Of a stretch of DNA of 6,060 bases, positions 1,372-6,060 are shown one piece after another (the stretch's first letter is position 1; each line of letters begins with the position of its first letter). Where the stretch lies: IMG/VR virus record IMGVR_UViG_2744054977_000003; one strand, written 5' to 3'. The DNA comes from a virus (Duplodnaviria; Heunggongvirae; Uroviricota; Caudoviricetes). The notes below the pieces were generated by a model. It did not search any database. It saw nothing but the letters and a program-made list of their open reading frames with translations, and was not told the DNA's origin. A program made the position numbers and the translations under genes.

Positions 1372-1763
1372 AACATACTGAACTCCGTGCAGCCGTACTG
1401 GATGCACTGGAGAAGCATGACACCGGGGCGACGCTTTTTGATGGTCGCCCCGCTGTTTTTGATGAGGAAGATTTTCCGGCAATTGCCGTTTATCTCACCG
1501 GCGCTGAATACACGGGCGAAGAGCTGGACAGCGATACCTGGCAGGCGGAGCTGCATATTGAAGTTTTCCTGCCTGCTCAGGTGCCGGATTCAGAGCTGGA
1601 TGCGTGGATGGAGTCCCGGATTTATCCGGTGATGAGCGATATCCCGGCACTGTCAGATTTGATCACCAGTATGGTGGCCAGCGGCTATGACTACCGGCGC
1701 GACGATGATGCGGGCCTGTGGAGTTCAGCCGATCTGACTTATGTCATTACCTATGAAATGTGA
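1368..1763 (+). CDS. U: Tail terminator protein gpU (lambda-like)
   Basis: 131-aa ORF ([48 protein letters not shown]...) recognised as lambda gpU. Start is coupled to the Z stop. Stop TGA at 1761-1763. Confidence 0.9.
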
Positions 1764-1770
1764 GGACGCT

Positions 1771-2511
1771 ATGCCTGTACCAAATCCTGTAATGCCGGTG
1801 AAAGGTGCCGGGACCACCCTGTGGGTTTATAAGGGAAGCGGTGACCCTTATGCGAATCCGCTTTCAGACGTTGACTGGTCGCGTCTGGCAAAAGTTAAAG
1901 ACCTGACGCCCGGCGAACTGACCGCTGAGTCCTATGACGACAGCTATCTCGATGATGAAGATGCAGACTGGACTGCGACCGGGCAGGGGCAGAAATCTGC
2001 CGGAGATACCAGCTTCACGCTGGCGTGGATGCCCGGAGAGCAGGGGCAGCAGGCGCTGCTGGCGTGGTTTAATGAAGGTGATACCCGTGCCTATAAAATC
2101 CGCTTCCCGAACGGCACGGTCGATGTGTTCCGTGGCTGGGTCAGCAGTATCGGTAAGGCGGTGACGGCGAAGGAAGTGATTACCCGCACGGTGAAGGTCA
2201 CCAATGTGGGACGTCCGTCGATGGCAGAAGATCGCAGCACGGTGACGGCGACAACCGGCATGACCGTGACGCCTGCCAGCACCTCGGTGGTGAAAGGGCA
2301 GAGCACCACGCTGACCGTGGCATTCCAGCCGGAAGGCGCAACCGACAAGAGCTTCCGTGCGGTGTCTGCGGATAAAACAAAAGCCACCGTGTCGGTCAGT
2401 GGTATGACCATCACCGTGAAAGGTGTTGCTGCAGGCAAGGTCAACATTCCGGTCGTATCCGGTAATGGTGAACTTGCTGCGGTTGCAGAAATCACCGTCA
2501 CCGCCAGTTAA
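1771..2511 (+). CDS. V: Major tail tube protein gpV (lambda-like) with C-terminal Ig-like domain. Start placed at ATG 1771, not the upstream in-frame ATG 1741 in the ORF track.
   Basis: Translation from 1771 ([36 protein letters not shown]...) matches the lambda gpV N-terminus as I recall it (246 aa). GAGGA at 1762-1766 with a 4-nt spacer supports ATG 1771. The 1741 start would overlap the U 3' end and has no SD. The C-terminal roughly 90 aa is Thr/Val-rich and beta-strand-like, as in the gpV Big_2 domain. Stop TAA at 2509-2511. Confidence 0.9.
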
Positions 2512-2526
2512 TCCGGGGAGTCAGAG

Positions 2527-2949
2527 ATGTTCCTGAAAACCGAATCATTTGAACATAACGGTGTGACCGTCACGCTTTCTGAACTGTCAGCCCTGCAGCG
2601 TATTGAGCATCTTGCCTGGTTGAAAGAGCAGGAAAAAAAGGCTGAATCCAGTGGCAACCTGCAGGTGTCTGTAGAGGAGCTTATCAGAGGCGGGGCGTTT
2701 CTGGTGGCGATGTCTCTGTGGCATAACCATCCACAGAAGACAAAGCTGCCGTCCATGAATGAAGCCATTACGCAGATTGAGCAGGAAGTGCTTACCACCT
2801 GGCCCACGGAGGCAATTGCTCAGGCTGAAAACGTGGTGTTACGTCTGTCCGGAATGTCTGAGTTTGTGGTGAATAATGCCCCTGAACAGACAGAGGACGC
2901 CGGGCCTGCAGAGCCTGTTTCTGCGGGAAAGTTTTCGACGGTGAGCTGA
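2527..2949 (+). CDS. G: Tail assembly chaperone gpG (lambda-like), the zero-frame product
   Basis: 140-aa ORF (MFLKTESFEHNGVTVTLSELSALQRIEHLAWLKEQEKK...PVSAGKFSTVS). GGGGAG at 2515-2520 with a 6-nt spacer precedes ATG 2527. It ends 18 nt after the conserved slippery heptamer. Stop TGA at 2947-2949. Confidence 0.9.
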   Translation: MFLKTESFEHNGVTVTLSELSALQRIEHLAWLKEQEKKAESSGNLQVSVEELIRGGAFLVAMSLWHNHPQKTKLPSMNEAITQIEQEVLTTWPTEAIAQAENVVLRLSGMSEFVVNNAPEQTEDAGPAEPVSAGKFSTVS

Positions 2950-3365
2950 GTTTTGCCCTGAAACTGGCGCGTGAGATGGGGCGACCCGACTGGCGTGCCA
3001 TGCTTGCCGGGATGTCATCCACGGAGTATGCCGACTGGCACCGCTTTTACAGTACCCATTATTTTCATGATGTTCTGCTGGATATGCACTTTTCCGGGCT
3101 GACGTACACCGTGCTCAGCCTGTTTTTCAGCGATCCGGATATGCATCCGCTGGATTTCAGTTTGCTGAACCGGCGTGAGGCTGACGAAGAGCCTGAAGAT
3201 GATGTGCTGATGCAGAAAGCGGCAGGGCTTGCCGGAGGTGTCCGCTTTGGCCCGGACGGGAATGAAGTTATCCCTACTTCCCCGGATGTGGCGGACATGA
3301 CGGAGGATGACGTAATGCTGATGACAGTATCAGAAGGGATCGCAGGAGGAGTCCGGTATGGCTGA
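2527..3365 (+). CDS. T: Tail assembly chaperone gpGT, the fusion made by programmed -1 ribosomal frameshift at G_GGA_AAG (2925-2931). Join is 2527..2931 then 2931..3365, with nt 2931 read twice. Predicted length about 279 aa.
   Basis: The T reading frame is open from the slippery site to TGA 3363-3365 and has no SD-supported start of its own. Reading in the -1 frame from 2925 gives GKVFDGELSFALKLAREMGRPDWRAML..., the lambda gpGT junction sequence. The predicted length agrees with my recollection of lambda gpGT, and the phase relationship is exactly right (G codons start at positions of the form 3k+1, T codons at 3k). Confidence 0.88.
2925..2931 (+). other. Programmed -1 ribosomal frameshift slippery heptamer G_GGA_AAG (recoding signal for gpGT)
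   Basis: Sequence gggaaag at 2925-2931 with GGA (2926-2928) and AAG (2929-2931) as zero-frame codons of G. This is the heptamer known from lambda G-T. Confidence 0.88.
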
Positions 3366-5836
3366 ACCGGTAGGCGATCTGGTCGTTGATTTGAGTCTGG
3401 ATGCGGCCAGATTTGACGAGCAGATGGCCAGAGTCAGGCGTCATTTTTCCGGTACGGAAACTGATGCGAAAAAAACAGCGGCAGTCGTTGAACAGTCGAT
3501 GAACCGGCAGGCGCTGGCTGCACAGAAAGCGGGAATTTCCGTCGGGCAGTATAAAGCCGCCATGCGTATGCTGCCTGCGCAGTTCACCGACGTGGCCACG
3601 CAGCTTGCAGGCGGGCAAAGTCCGTGGCTGATCCTGCTGCAACAGGGGGGTCAGGTGAAGGACTCCTTCGGCGGGATGATCCCCATGTTCCGGGGGCTTG
3701 CCGGTGCGATCACCCTGCCGATGGTGGGGGCCACCTCGCTGGCGGTGGCGACCGGTGCGCTGGCGTATGCCTGGTATCAGGGCAACTCAACCCTGTCCGA
3801 TTTCAACAAAACGCTGGTCCTTTCCGGCAATCAGGCGGGACTGACGGCAGATCGTATGCTGGTCCTGTCCAGAGCCGGGCAGGCGGCAGGGCTGACGTTT
3901 AACCAGACCAGCGAGTCACTGACGGCGCTGGTGAATGCCGGTGTGCGTGGTGGTGAGCAGTTTGAGGCGATCAGCCAGAGTGTGGCGCGTTTCTCCTCTG
4001 CATCCGGCGTGGAGGTGGACAAGGTCGCTGAAGCCTTCGGGAAGCTGACCACAGACCCGACGTCGGGACTGACAGCGATGGCACGTCAGTTCCATAACGT
4101 GACGGCGGAGCAGATTGCGTATGTTGCTCAGTTGCAGCGTTCCGGAGATGAAGCCGGGGCATTGCAGGCGGCGAACGAGGCCGCAACGAAAGGGTTTGAT
4201 GACCAGACCCGCCGCCTGAAAGAGAACATGGGCACGCTGGAGACCTGGGCAGACAGGACAGCACGGGCATTCAAATCCATGTGGGATTCGGTGCTGGATA
4301 TTGGTCGCCCGGACACTGCCCAGGGAATGCTGGAGAAAGCAGAAAAGGCTTTTGATGAGGCGGACAAAAAATGGCAGTGGTATCAGAGCCGGAGCCACCG
4401 GCGCGGTAAAACCTCAGCATTTCTTGCCAATCTCCGGGGAGCATGGGAGGACAGAGCGAATGCGCAACTTGGGCTTTCAGCCGCCACGTTGCAGGCCGAT
4501 CTTGAAAAGGCCAGAGAGATGGCAGCAAAGGACTGGGTCGAGTCTGAGGCATCACGGCTGAAATATACCGAAGAGGCGCAGAAGGCTTACGAACGCCTGC
4601 AGACGCCGCTGGAGAAATATACCGCCCGTCAGGAAGAACTGAATAAGGCACTGAAAGACGGGAAAATCCTGCAGGCAGATTACAACACGCTGATGGCGGC
4701 AGCGAAAAAGGATTATGAAGCGACGCTGAAAAAGCCGAAGCAGTCCGGCGTGAAAGTGTCTGCAGGCGATCGCCAGGAAGACAGTGCTCATGCTGCCCTG
4801 CTGACGCTTCAGGCAGAACTCCGGACGCTGGAGAAGCATGCCGGAGCGAATGAGAAAATCAGCCAGCAGCGCCGGGATTTGTGGAAGGCGGAGAGTCAGT
4901 TCGCTGTACTGGAGGAGGCGGCACAACGTCGCCAGCTGTCCGCACAGGAGAAATCCCTGCTGGCGCATAAAGATGAGACGCTGGAGTACAAACGCCAGCT
5001 GGCTGCACTTGGCGACAAGGTTACGTATCAGGAGCGCCTGAACGCGCTGGCGCAGCAGGCGGATAAATTCGCACAGCAGCAACGGGCAAAACGGGCCGCC
5101 ATTGATGCGAAAAGCCGGGGGCTGACTGACCGGCAGGCAGNNNNNNNNNNNNNNNNNCTGGATGGCAGGCCTGAAGTCCGGCTGGAGTGAGTGGGAAGAG
5201 AGCGCCACGGACAGTATGTCGCAGGTTAAAAGTGCAGCCACGCAGACCTTTGATGGTATTGCGCAGAATATGGCGGCGATGCTGACCGGCAGTGAGCAGA
5301 ACTGGCGCAGCTTCACCCGTTCCGTGCTGTCCATGATGACAGAAATTCTGCTTAAGCAGGCAATGGTGGGGATTGTCGGGAGTATCGGTAGCGCCATTGG
5401 CGGGGCTGTTGGTGGCGGCGCATCCGCATCAGGCGGTACAGCCATTCAGGCAGCTGCGGCGAAATTCCATTTTGCGACCGGAGGATTTACGGGAACCGGC
5501 GGCAAATATGAGCCAGCGGGGATTGTTCACCGTGGTGAATTTGTCTTCACGAAGGAGGCAACCAGCCGGATTGGTGTCGGCAACCTGTACCGCCTGATGC
5601 GGGGCTATGCGGAAGGTGGTTATGTGGGCGGTGCCGGAAGTCCGGCGCAGATGCGGCGGGCTGAAGGCATTAATTTTAATCAGAACAATCACGTGGTGAT
5701 TCAGAACGACGGTACGAATGGTCTGCCAGGTCCACAGATGATGAAGGCAGTGTATGACATGGCCCGCAAGGGTGCCCGTGATGAAATTCAGGCACAGATG
5801 CGCGATGGTGGTCTGTTCTCCGGAGGTGGACGATGA
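3358..5836 (+). CDS. H: Tail tape measure protein gpH (lambda-like), interrupted by a 17-nt N run at 5141-5157 with an apparent frame change across it. Intact gene with an assembly gap or a pseudogene is unresolved.
   Basis: N-terminal piece 3358..5140 (MAEPVGDLVVDLSLDAARFDEQMARVRRHF...GLTDRQA) and C-terminal piece 5159..5836 (WMAGLKSGWSEWEESATDSM...MRDGGLFSGGGR) both match lambda gpH as I recall it. AGGAGGA at 3344-3350 with a 7-nt spacer precedes ATG 3358, which overlaps the T stop. Stop TGA at 5834-5836 overlaps the M start. The upstream piece has codons starting at 3k+1 and the downstream piece at 3k+2. Confidence 0.85.
5141..5157. other. Run of 17 ambiguous bases (N), an assembly gap or masked segment inside gene H
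   Basis: Literal n characters in the sequence. The flanking coding frames are not congruent with a 17-nt spacer. Confidence 0.99.
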
Positions 5837-6060
5837 AGACCTTCCGCTGGAAAGTGAAACCCGGTATGGATGTGGCTTCGGCCCCTTCCGTCAGGAAAGT
5901 GCGCTTTGGTGATGGCTATTCCCAGCGAGCGCCTGCCGGGCTGAATGCCGACCTGAAAACGTACAGCGTGACGCTTTCTGTTCCCCGTTGGGAGGCCACG
6001 GCGCTGGAGTCGTTTCTGGCTGAGCACGGGGGCTGGAAAGCCTTTCTGTGGACGCCGCCT
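5833..6060 (+). CDS. M: Minor tail protein gpM (lambda-like), 5' part only; continues beyond the window end
   Basis: My own translation from ATG 5833: MKTFRWKVKPGMDVASAPSVRKVRFGDGYSQRAPAGLNADLKTYSVTLSVPRWEATALESFLAEHGGWKAFLWTPP, recognised as the lambda gpM N-terminus. GGAGGTGGA at 5822-5830 is upstream. The start overlaps the H stop (ATGA). Absent from the ORF track because there is no stop within the window. Confidence 0.85.
   Translation, partial: MKTFRWKVKPGMDVASAPSVRKVRFGDGYSQRAPAGLNADLKTYSVTLSVPRWEATALESFLAEHGGWKAFLWTPP

What the first reader, a model, noticed from the sequence alone, without database searches (positions are those of the whole stretch)
2925..3365. Intact G-T programmed -1 frameshift cassette
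The slippery heptamer G_GGA_AAG sits in the exact phase needed to join G (codons at 3k+1) to the T frame (codons at 3k), 18 nt before the G stop. The T frame is open from there to 3365, and no SD-supported start exists for T alone. This matches the known lambda recoding event, in which a small fraction of ribosomes make gpGT. The G/GT ratio is established as essential for tail assembly, and the mechanism is conserved across long-tailed phages. It is a real recoding signal that ORF callers miss, but it is not novel.
Basis: partly seen in the sequence, partly recalled or inferred. Interest (0 to 1): 0.45.

Follow-up and report, generated by a model that had tools for sequence, protein, structure and literature searches.

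The report
Lambda-type G/GT tail-chaperone frameshift site
This is the well-known lambda phage signal that makes a few percent of ribosomes slip back one base at the end of gene G to produce the G-T fusion protein needed for tail assembly; it is intact here, ordinary and already described.

Summary
GGGAAAG lies at 2925-2931, phased G_GGA_AAG in the 140-codon G ORF (2527-2949). The -1 (T) frame is open from 2886 to the stop at 3363-3365. A -1 slip gives a 279-aa fusion that aligns without gaps to lambda gpGT: 255/279 identical overall, 143/144 in the T part.

The window is a lambdoid FI-FII-Z-U-V-G-T-H block. Apart from a 17-N gap in H, it differs by 3 mismatches from an E. coli prophage. The G-T stretch is 93.9% identical to lambda.

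One GGGAAAG in 6 kb is what chance gives; the support comes from context. In 91 related loci, from Escherichia to Proteus, Pantoea and Edwardsiella, an NNNAAA(G/A) slip site sits exactly 13 T-frame codons upstream of the conserved ARE motif. T-frame conservation begins at the slip site, not at ATG 2976. That ATG has no Shine-Dalgarno sequence and its residue is Phe in most relatives.

A branched RNA fold is predicted 7 nt downstream (2939-3009), but comparative support for it is equivocal.

RefSeq and some phage records still annotate T from the internal ATG.

The parts
1771..2511 (+). Gene V (major tail tube protein), immediately upstream of G. It gives the canonical V-G-T-H gene order.
   Evidence: PF16461 Phage_TTP_12 at E=1.7e-70, plus Big_2. 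Collinear with lambda V.
2515..2520 (+). Shine-Dalgarno sequence of G (GGGGAG)
   Evidence: Anti-SD duplex of -7.6 kcal/mol, ending 5 nt before ATG 2527.
2527..2949 (+). Gene G, the zero-frame product gpG (140 aa, tail assembly chaperone); stop TGA at 2947-2949.
   Evidence: ORF list. PF06894 at E=4.4e-53. TIGR01674 equivalog, 191 bits against a cutoff of 74. Residues 31-111 form a mosaic patch relative to lambda.
2925..2931 (+). Slippery heptamer G_GGA_AAG, the site of the -1 shift (GGA AAG re-read as GGG AAA).
   Evidence: Sequence and phase. Identical to the lambda site at lambda coordinates 10109-10115. Named as lambda's G/GT slippery sequence in PMC3296357 Table 1 and in PMC7618472.
2931..3365 (+). 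T segment in the -1 frame (144 codons plus stop TGA at 3363-3365), translated only as the C-terminal part of gpGT. The fusion is 2527-2931 joined to 2931-3365, 279 aa.
   Evidence: Translation. PF06223. TIGR01715 equivalog aligns from T residue 5, which is 11 codons upstream of ATG 2976. 143/144 identical to lambda T, which is annotated from the same base.
2976..2978 (+). Internal ATG (Met16 of the T segment) that gene callers use as the 'T' start; most likely not an initiation site.
   Evidence: No SD: -2.3 kcal/mol, worse than the background median. The residue is Phe in 7 of 10 aligned relatives, while E5, F8, L12, A13, R14 and E15 upstream of it are invariant. PGAP and the Turner record start T here.
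2939..3009 (+). Predicted branched RNA structure starting 7 nt after the heptamer: an outer stem (2939-2946 with 3002-3009) enclosing two hairpins. It is a possible but unproven modulator of the shift.
   Evidence: MFE -36.4 kcal/mol, z=-4.1, 0 of 200 shuffles as stable. More stable than synonymous-codon shuffles (z=-2.4, p about 0.01). 85% of pair cells kept in 16 relatives but only 72% in 60, with no excess of covarying pairs. No drop in synonymous variation. No Rfam family.
3358..5836 (+). Gene H (tape measure protein), the binding partner of gpG/gpGT. Its ATG at 3358 overlaps the end of T, with SD AGGAGG at 3344-3349. The gene is interrupted by a 17-N run at 5141-5157.
   Evidence: PF06791 TMP_2 at E=5.3e-71. 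SD duplex -10.3 kcal/mol. N run. Comparison with the E. coli prophage L004.

Best explanation
This is the G/GT tail-assembly-chaperone recoding cassette of a lambda-like phage or prophage of E. coli. All ribosomes start at ATG 2527.

Most ribosomes read G to the TGA at 2947-2949 and release gpG (140 aa). A small fraction slips one base backwards while tRNA-Gly and tRNA-Lys occupy GGA and AAG at 2926-2931. The tRNAs re-pair with GGG and AAA, and the ribosome continues in the T frame to 3365. The product is gpGT (279 aa). In lambda, which has the identical heptamer, about 4% of ribosomes shift.

By homology to lambda, many copies of gpG and few of gpGT coat the tape measure protein H. The T domain recruits the tail tube protein V. 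Both chaperones leave before the tail is finished.

Shown here:
- the anatomy, phase and open frames;
- orthology to lambda G, T, V and H;
- the absence of an independent start for T;
- positional conservation of the slip site across Enterobacterales.

Inferred from lambda experiments and not measured here: the act of frameshifting, its rate, and the chaperone function.
For: Anatomy and phase.

Orthology: G-T DNA is 93.9% identical to lambda and 98.5% to phage Turner. It is 100% identical to prophages in seven complete E. coli chromosomes, and 3498 of 5426 complete E. coli genomes hold a match covering at least 80% of the query. The fusion is 255/279 identical to lambda gpGT without gaps. Family models: PF06894 and PF06223; TIGR01674 and TIGR01715 equivalogs.

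Precedent in annotation: phage 21 and phi80 records annotate the joined CDS, and phi80 has a 'slippery sequence for -1 translational frameshift' feature at the homologous position.

Conservation: in 91 loci the T-frame hexamer 13 codons upstream of the conserved A-R/H-E is NNNAAA followed by G or A. The counts are GGAAAAG 52, GGGAAAG 27, AAAAAAG 3, AGAAAAG 3, GGTAAAG 3, GGCAAAA 2 and GGGAAAA 1. A G-frame ORF is open for a median of 138 codons upstream, and the G stop lies 0, 3 or 15 nt downstream. Just 3' of the heptamer the T-frame peptide is conserved (VFDGEL, AFEGEL, VLASEL, ALASEL), whereas the G-frame tail varies in sequence and length.

No independent T start. No promoter-like site between G and T.

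Literature: lambda's slippery sequence is GGGAAAG and the zero frame is kept about 96% of the time (PMC3296357). The 30:1 ratio is crucial for tail assembly, and neither product is in virions (PMC5009743). G_GGA_AAG is highly shift-prone in E. coli (PMC5009743 citing Sharma et al. 2014).
Against: No direct measurement exists for this sequence. The base two positions 3' of the heptamer differs from lambda (2933 T instead of G), so the rate could differ somewhat from lambda's. The heptamer's mere occurrence is not statistically unusual. Whether the surrounding phage or prophage is functional cannot be judged from 6 kb that contains an assembly gap in H.
Confidence: 0.94

Rival explanations
1. 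T is an ordinary separate gene, initiated at ATG 2976 to give a 129-aa protein, as RefSeq PGAP and some phage records annotate it. On this reading the heptamer is incidental.
For: Gene callers place the T CDS at this ATG in the E. coli prophage and in phage Turner. It is the first start codon in the T frame.
Against: There is no SD: -2.3 kcal/mol, and 72% of window positions do as well. The ATG lies inside the predicted hairpin. Met16 is Phe in 7 of 10 relatives, while invariant residues E5, F8, L12, A13, R14 and E15 lie upstream of it. The TIGR01715 model starts 11 codons upstream of the ATG. Annotated 'T starts' in relatives fall at different, non-homologous codons, whereas the slip site is fixed. 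In lambda the T frame is expressed as gpGT by frameshifting (PMC5009743 and PMC3296357).
Confidence: 0.03
2. The fusion arises by RNA polymerase slippage (loss or gain of an A in the mRNA) rather than by ribosomal slippage.
For: Some relatives have AAAAAAG at the site. Transcriptional slippage is known in other systems (PMC5009743).
Against: The run here is only three A's. From my own knowledge of slippage systems, not from a tool result, productive transcriptional slippage needs a much longer homopolymer run. The conserved feature across relatives is the in-phase A_AAG tetramer with a P-site codon that can re-pair (GGA, GAA or GUA), which is a ribosomal signature. Lambda's gpG:gpGT ratio responds to thiolation of tRNA-Lys U34, which is a ribosomal mechanism (PMC3296357).
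Confidence: 0.01
3. The cassette is intact in sequence but no longer used, because it sits in a defective prophage remnant that is never expressed.
For: Most matches are chromosomal prophages (4224 of 4247 places). At least one relative, Shigella flexneri L144, carries a broken T frame.
Against: All eight genes seen in the window are open and collinear with lambda, apart from the assembly gap. The G-T stretch is 98.5% identical to that of the isolated phage Turner. This rival concerns the host element, not what the signal is.
Confidence: 0.05

Closest known systems
Bacteriophage lambda G / G-T programmed -1 ribosomal frameshift (Levin, Hendrix & Casjens 1993; Xu, Hendrix & Duda 2013, 2014)
   Same: Same heptamer, G_GGA_AAG, at the same codon (Gly134-Lys135 of G). 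Same 15-nt distance to the G stop, same 140-aa and 279-aa products, and same V-G-T-H context. T is 143/144 identical.
   Different: G residues 31-111 carry 23 substitutions, a mosaic patch. The base two positions after the heptamer is T rather than G, which turns the G tail CSTVS into FSTVS and is silent in the T frame. This G allele also has an extra in-phase A_AAA_AAG at 2634-2640.
G-T frameshift of phi80, N15 and HK225-type lambdoid phages and of prophages of other Enterobacterales
   Same: Homologous G and T (T 38-63% identical). The slip site sits at the same distance (13 codons) from the conserved ARE motif.
   Different: They use G_GAA_AAG (also A_GAA_AAG or G_GUA_AAG), where the P-site re-pairing is imperfect. 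The G stop often follows after 0 or 3 nt. The T segment is shorter, about 112-117 codons.
Conserved tail assembly chaperone frameshift of long-tailed dsDNA phages (Xu, Hendrix & Duda 2004), including P2 E/E+E'
   Same: Two overlapping ORFs lie between the major tail gene and the tape measure gene, and the longer product is made by a low-level frameshift (PMC5009743; PMC10885494).
   Different: Most of those cases share no detectable sequence similarity with lambda G/T and use other slippery sequences or +1/-2 shifts. The present locus is a close orthologue, not just an analogue.
E. coli dnaX tau/gamma -1 frameshift
   Same: A -1 shift on an A_AAG-ending heptamer decoded by the single tRNA-Lys (mnm5s2UUU) (PMC5009743).
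   Different: dnaX uses A_AAA_AAG with an upstream SD-like element and a downstream stem-loop, reaches about 50%, and yields a shorter product (PMC3965066). Here there is no SD-like core upstream (read from the sequence), the rate in lambda is about 4%, and the product is longer.

Membership tests
Lambda-type G/GT tail assembly chaperone -1 frameshift cassette | Two overlapping ORFs located between the major tail (tube) gene and the tape measure gene | tested here: met
   V at 1771-2511 (PF16461), G at 2527-2949, T frame to 3365, H from 3358 (PF06791). Collinear with lambda.
Lambda-type G/GT tail assembly chaperone -1 frameshift cassette | The upstream ORF is a gpG homologue | tested here: met
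   PF06894 at E=4.4e-53. TIGR01674 equivalog, 191 bits against a cutoff of 74.
Lambda-type G/GT tail assembly chaperone -1 frameshift cassette | The downstream ORF is a T homologue lying in the -1 frame relative to G | tested here: met
   PF06223, 54 bits against a cutoff of 25.9. TIGR01715 equivalog, 189 bits against 77. G codons at 3k+1 and T codons at 3k.
Lambda-type G/GT tail assembly chaperone -1 frameshift cassette | An in-phase slippery heptamer (X_XXY_YYZ) near the 3' end of G, inside the G/T overlap | tested here: met
   G_GGA_AAG at 2925-2931, 15 nt before the G stop, within the 64-nt overlap 2886-2949.
Lambda-type G/GT tail assembly chaperone -1 frameshift cassette | The downstream ORF lacks its own translation start | tested here: met
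   The only candidate, ATG 2976, has no SD (-2.3 kcal/mol), is not conserved, and lies inside the conserved family region.
Lambda-type G/GT tail assembly chaperone -1 frameshift cassette | The slip site is conserved in position among homologues although the flanking sequence diverges | tested here: met
   All 91 of the loci in which the T-frame anchor motif was found have NNNAAA(G/A) exactly 13 T-frame codons upstream of the ARE motif. A further 6 loci gave no anchor hit: some are truncated, one has a broken T frame, and three had shown the same site under the looser pattern.
Lambda-type G/GT tail assembly chaperone -1 frameshift cassette | A few percent of ribosomes actually shift, giving both gpG and gpGT | not testable with these tools
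   Shown experimentally for lambda with the identical heptamer (PMC3296357 and PMC5009743). Not measured for this sequence, which differs at the second base 3' of the heptamer.
Lambda-type G/GT tail assembly chaperone -1 frameshift cassette | gpG/gpGT bind the tape measure protein, the T domain recruits the tail tube protein, and both are absent from virions | not testable with these tools
   Inferred from 91% identity to lambda gpGT and the lambda literature (PMC5009743). No solved structure of a relative exists.
-1 PRF signals with a defined downstream RNA stimulator (dnaX-, IS- or coronavirus-type) | A conserved stem-loop or pseudoknot 5-9 nt 3' of the heptamer, supported by covariation or mutagenesis | tested here: inconclusive
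   A stable branched fold starts 7 nt downstream (z=-4.1; z about -2 against synonymous shuffles in 10 of 14 relatives). Pairing falls to 72% in 60 relatives. Covarying pairs do not exceed shuffles (12 against 11.8). Synonymous variation is not reduced (p=0.27). There is no Rfam match.

The most novel reading that the evidence does not exclude
The branched RNA fold predicted at 2939-3009, starting 7 nt after the heptamer and predicted with the same outer-stem and long-hairpin architecture in most lambda-, Stx- and phi80-type relatives tested, may be a real and so far uncharacterised element that tunes the gpG:gpGT ratio. On this reading the 2933 G-to-T change next to the heptamer shifts that ratio in this allele. 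The evidence neither establishes nor excludes this.
Probability: 0.15. Interest if true: 0.3.

Novelty: already known. Interest (0 to 1): 0.08.

Why it matters
Scientifically it adds nothing new. The lambda G/GT frameshift has been a textbook recoding event since 1993, and this copy is a close orthologue found in about two thirds of complete E. coli genomes.

Its practical value lies in annotation. RefSeq PGAP and some recent phage records still call T as a separate 129-aa gene from a non-conserved internal ATG. That truncates 15 conserved residues and hides the 279-aa gpGT product. The comparative rule found here could be used to correct such records across Enterobacterales: the slip site is NNNAAA(G/A), 13 T-frame codons upstream of the ARE motif.

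Tried and rejected
1. Heptamer frequency as evidence. One copy against 1.03 expected, so it is uninformative alone; I relied on phase, overlap and conservation instead.

2. A viral-contig scan with the T segment returned only relatives 99-100% identical in protein. It was useless for conservation, so I switched to tblastn of the phage collection with spread rows and to a profile scan of species-representative genomes.

3. A strict X_XXY_YYZ search missed the site in phi80-type relatives. Inspection showed G_GAA_AAG, which is annotated as slippery in the phi80 record, so the rule was relaxed to NNNAAA(G/A).

4. The downstream RNA stimulator was tested in five ways (fold z-score, synonymous-codon shuffles, pair counts on 16 and on 60 sequences, synonymous-site entropy, Rfam). 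The fold is stable in lambda-like and phi80-like sequences, but it is confounded by the conserved peptide LAREMGRPDWRAMLAG: the mirrored Ala-Arg / Arg-Ala codons give GGCGCG...CGCGCC. The wider family does not support it, so it is left as unproven.

5. An upstream SD-like stimulator as in dnaX: no GGAG, GAGG or AGGA core lies in the 20 nt before the heptamer (sequence). The nearest, GAGGA at 2894-2898, is about 27 nt upstream, which I judge too far by analogy with dnaX (my own knowledge).

6. Independent initiation at ATG 2976 was rejected.

7. Transcriptional slippage was rejected because the site has only three A's.

8. A PDB sequence search for gpGT gave no hits.

9. I could not obtain Levin et al. 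1993, Xu et al. 2013 or Liu et al. 2013. I recall that Levin et al. reported a modest contribution of downstream sequence without a simple structure, but this is unverified.

Full report
**Observation**

The sequence shows GGGAAAG at 2925-2931, the only copy in the window on either strand. The G ORF runs from ATG 2527 to TGA 2947-2949 and encodes 140 aa. Because (2925-2527) mod 3 = 2, the zero-frame codons are GCG GGA AAG. The heptamer therefore has the X_XXY_YYZ phase that lets both tRNAs re-pair after a -1 slip, GGA AAG becoming GGG AAA.

The -1 frame has a stop at 2883-2885 and is then open to the stop at 3363-3365. The two frames overlap for 64 nt (2886-2949), and the heptamer lies inside that overlap. 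Fifteen nucleotides (five codons) separate it from the G stop. Joining 2527-2931 to 2931-3365 gives a 279-aa protein with the junction ...PVSAGK/VFDGELSF....

Its '18 nt' holds only when counted to the last base of the stop codon.

**What the region is**

The G-T stretch is 93.9% identical to phage lambda and 98.5% to Escherichia phage Turner. It is 100% identical to prophages in seven complete E. coli chromosomes, and 3498 of 5426 complete E. coli genomes hold a match covering at least 80% of it.

Apart from a 17-N run inside H, the whole window differs from the prophage of E. coli VG888-46E9 by three mismatches. It is collinear with lambda FI-FII-Z-U-V-G-T-H.

The predicted fusion aligns to lambda gpGT without gaps and is 255/279 identical. 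Twenty-three of the 24 differences lie in G residues 31-111, and the T part is 143/144 identical. Lambda's T CDS is annotated from the base that corresponds to window 2931, the last base of the heptamer.

Family models agree:
- G matches PF06894 and the TIGR01674 equivalog.
- The T part matches PF06223 and the TIGR01715 equivalog.
- V and H match the lambda tail tube and tape measure families.

**Is it more than chance?**

The heptamer count is not informative: shuffles give 1.03 copies on average. The context is.

Only five in-phase XXXYYYZ heptamers occur among 1760 codon positions of the window's genes. This one sits in the short overlap where a shift is productive.

The comparison with relatives carries more weight. 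I collected graded relatives from the phage collection (T 96% down to 32% identical) and from species-representative bacterial genomes. In all 91 loci where the T-frame anchor motif was found, the T-frame hexamer 13 codons upstream of the conserved Ala-Arg/His-Glu is NNNAAA followed by G or A. The counts are GGAAAAG 52, GGGAAAG 27, AAAAAAG 3, AGAAAAG 3, GGTAAAG 3, GGCAAAA 2 and GGGAAAA 1. In these loci a G-frame ORF is open for a median of 138 codons upstream, and the G stop follows 0, 3 or 15 nt downstream. The hosts range from Escherichia, Enterobacter, Klebsiella and Kluyvera to Morganella, Proteus, Providencia, Pantoea and Edwardsiella.

The phi80 record labels the homologous GGAAAAG as 'slippery sequence for -1 translational frameshift'. 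The phi80 and phage 21 records both annotate the joined CDS.

Immediately 3' of the site the T-frame peptide is conserved (VFDGEL, AFEGEL, VLASEL, ALASEL). The G-frame tail varies in sequence and length (FSTVS, CSTVS, SSTAS, HSKAS, PLPAS, P, none). Selection therefore acts on the T frame from the slip site onward.

**Does T have its own start?**

ATG 2976 is the first ATG/GTG/TTG in the T frame. Four observations argue against it as an initiation site:
- Its best pairing to the anti-Shine-Dalgarno sequence is -2.3 kcal/mol. That is weaker than the median of all positions in the window, and compares with -7.6 for G and -10.3 for H.
- The Met is replaced by Phe in 7 of 10 aligned relatives, while six invariant residues (E5, F8, L12, A13, R14, E15) lie upstream of it.
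- The TIGR01715 model begins 11 codons upstream of it.
- No promoter-like site lies between G and T.

RefSeq PGAP and the Turner record nevertheless start T at this ATG.

**Mechanism**

By orthology, this is lambda's programmed -1 ribosomal frameshift. The papers held in the library state the following:
- Lambda uses GGGAAAG for G/GT, the zero frame is kept about 96% of the time, and both Lys codons are read by the single tRNA-Lys(UUU). Loss of thiolation of its U34 raises frameshifting and lowers phage yield (PMC3296357; PMC7618472).
- The roughly 30:1 ratio of gpG to gpGT is crucial for tail assembly.
- gpG and the G part of gpGT bind the tape measure protein, and the T domain binds the major tail protein.
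- Neither protein is found in virions (PMC5009743).
- G_GGA_AAG is among the most shift-prone heptamers in E. coli (PMC5009743).

The act of shifting, its rate and the chaperone function are inferred for this sequence and were not measured.

**A possible downstream element**

RNA folding predicts a branched structure at 2939-3009 that starts 7 nt after the heptamer: -36.4 kcal/mol, z=-4.1, and 0 of 200 shuffles as stable. The same outer stem and long hairpin are predicted in most of the lambda-, Stx- and phi80-type sequences tested. The native sequences are more stable than synonymous-codon shuffles in 10 of 14 cases (z about -2 to -2.8).

The wider comparison does not support it:
- 85% of pair cells are kept in 16 relatives, but only 72% in 60.
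- The number of covarying pairs equals the shuffle expectation (12 against 11.8).
- Synonymous variation in this zone is not reduced (0.66 against 0.76, p=0.27).
- Rfam has no matching family.

Part of the complementarity follows from the conserved peptide itself, through the mirrored Ala-Arg and Arg-Ala codons. I treat the structure as unproven. I could not obtain Levin et al. 1993 to check what was reported about downstream sequence.

**Differences from lambda near the site**

Base 2933 is T where lambda has G. This changes the G tail from CSTVS to FSTVS and is silent in the T frame. An effect on the frameshift rate is possible but untested.

**Verdict**

The finding is real and correctly interpreted, and it is a close orthologue of a textbook case. 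Novelty is 'already known' and interest is low. The only practical point is that many database records still mis-annotate T.

Noticed in passing
window 2633-2640: G contains a second in-phase slippery heptamer, A_AAA_AAG (dnaX type, within a run of seven A's; G codons GAA AAA AAG). A -1 shift there meets TGA after three codons (KKG*), giving a dead-end peptide of about 38 aa. Lambda lacks it (GCAGAACAG there). Only 7 of about 105 sampled loci carry this G allele, including phage Turner and the E. coli prophage L004. A shift there would lower gpG and gpGT output equally and would not change their ratio.
   Followed up: partly
window 5141-5157: A run of 17 N lies inside the tape measure gene H, and the reading frame differs on its two sides. 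By H gene length (2580 nt in the near-identical E. coli VG888-46E9 prophage, 2479 nt here), the run stands for about 118 nt. It is therefore an assembly gap or mask, not a real feature.
   Followed up: yes
window 2601-2860: This is a mosaic patch in G: 39 nucleotide differences from lambda in 2601-2800, against 0-8 per 200 nt in the genes upstream. They give 23 amino-acid changes in G residues 31-111, while T is almost identical. Phage Turner shares the window's allele. This looks like a recombination patch typical of lambdoid phages.
   Followed up: partly
window 2933: T replaces lambda's G two bases after the heptamer. The change is Cys136 to Phe in the gpG tail and is silent in the T frame. 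In the relatives examined, the two bases after the heptamer read TT, TG, TC or CA.
   Followed up: partly
window 4201-4600, 5001-5200 and 5601-6060: H diverges strongly from lambda in blocks (60-120 differences per 200 nt, with several indels). The end of the window no longer aligns to lambda, although it matches the E. coli prophage. The tape measure gene is therefore mosaic relative to lambda.
   Followed up: no
loci L099-L113, L124, L132, L155 (genome contigs): G-T segments 99-100% identical to lambda's appear on short or low-coverage contigs of unrelated organisms (Neobacillus, Kitasatospora, Pseudomonas, Shewanella, Chromatium, Enterococcus, Psychrobacter and others). The most likely cause is lambda DNA contaminating those assemblies.
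   Followed up: no
locus L144 (Shigella flexneri CP182557.1), about 695-760: The heptamer GGGAAAG is intact, but the T frame is broken by changes about 20 nt downstream (GKVFDGELISP*). This is a decayed G-T cassette in a prophage remnant.
   Followed up: no
window 1741-1770: The mechanical ORF list extends V upstream to ATG 1741 (256 aa). Lambda's V (246 aa) corresponds to ATG 1771, which has a GAGGA Shine-Dalgarno sequence. The longer ORF is probably an artefact of ORF listing.
   Followed up: partly
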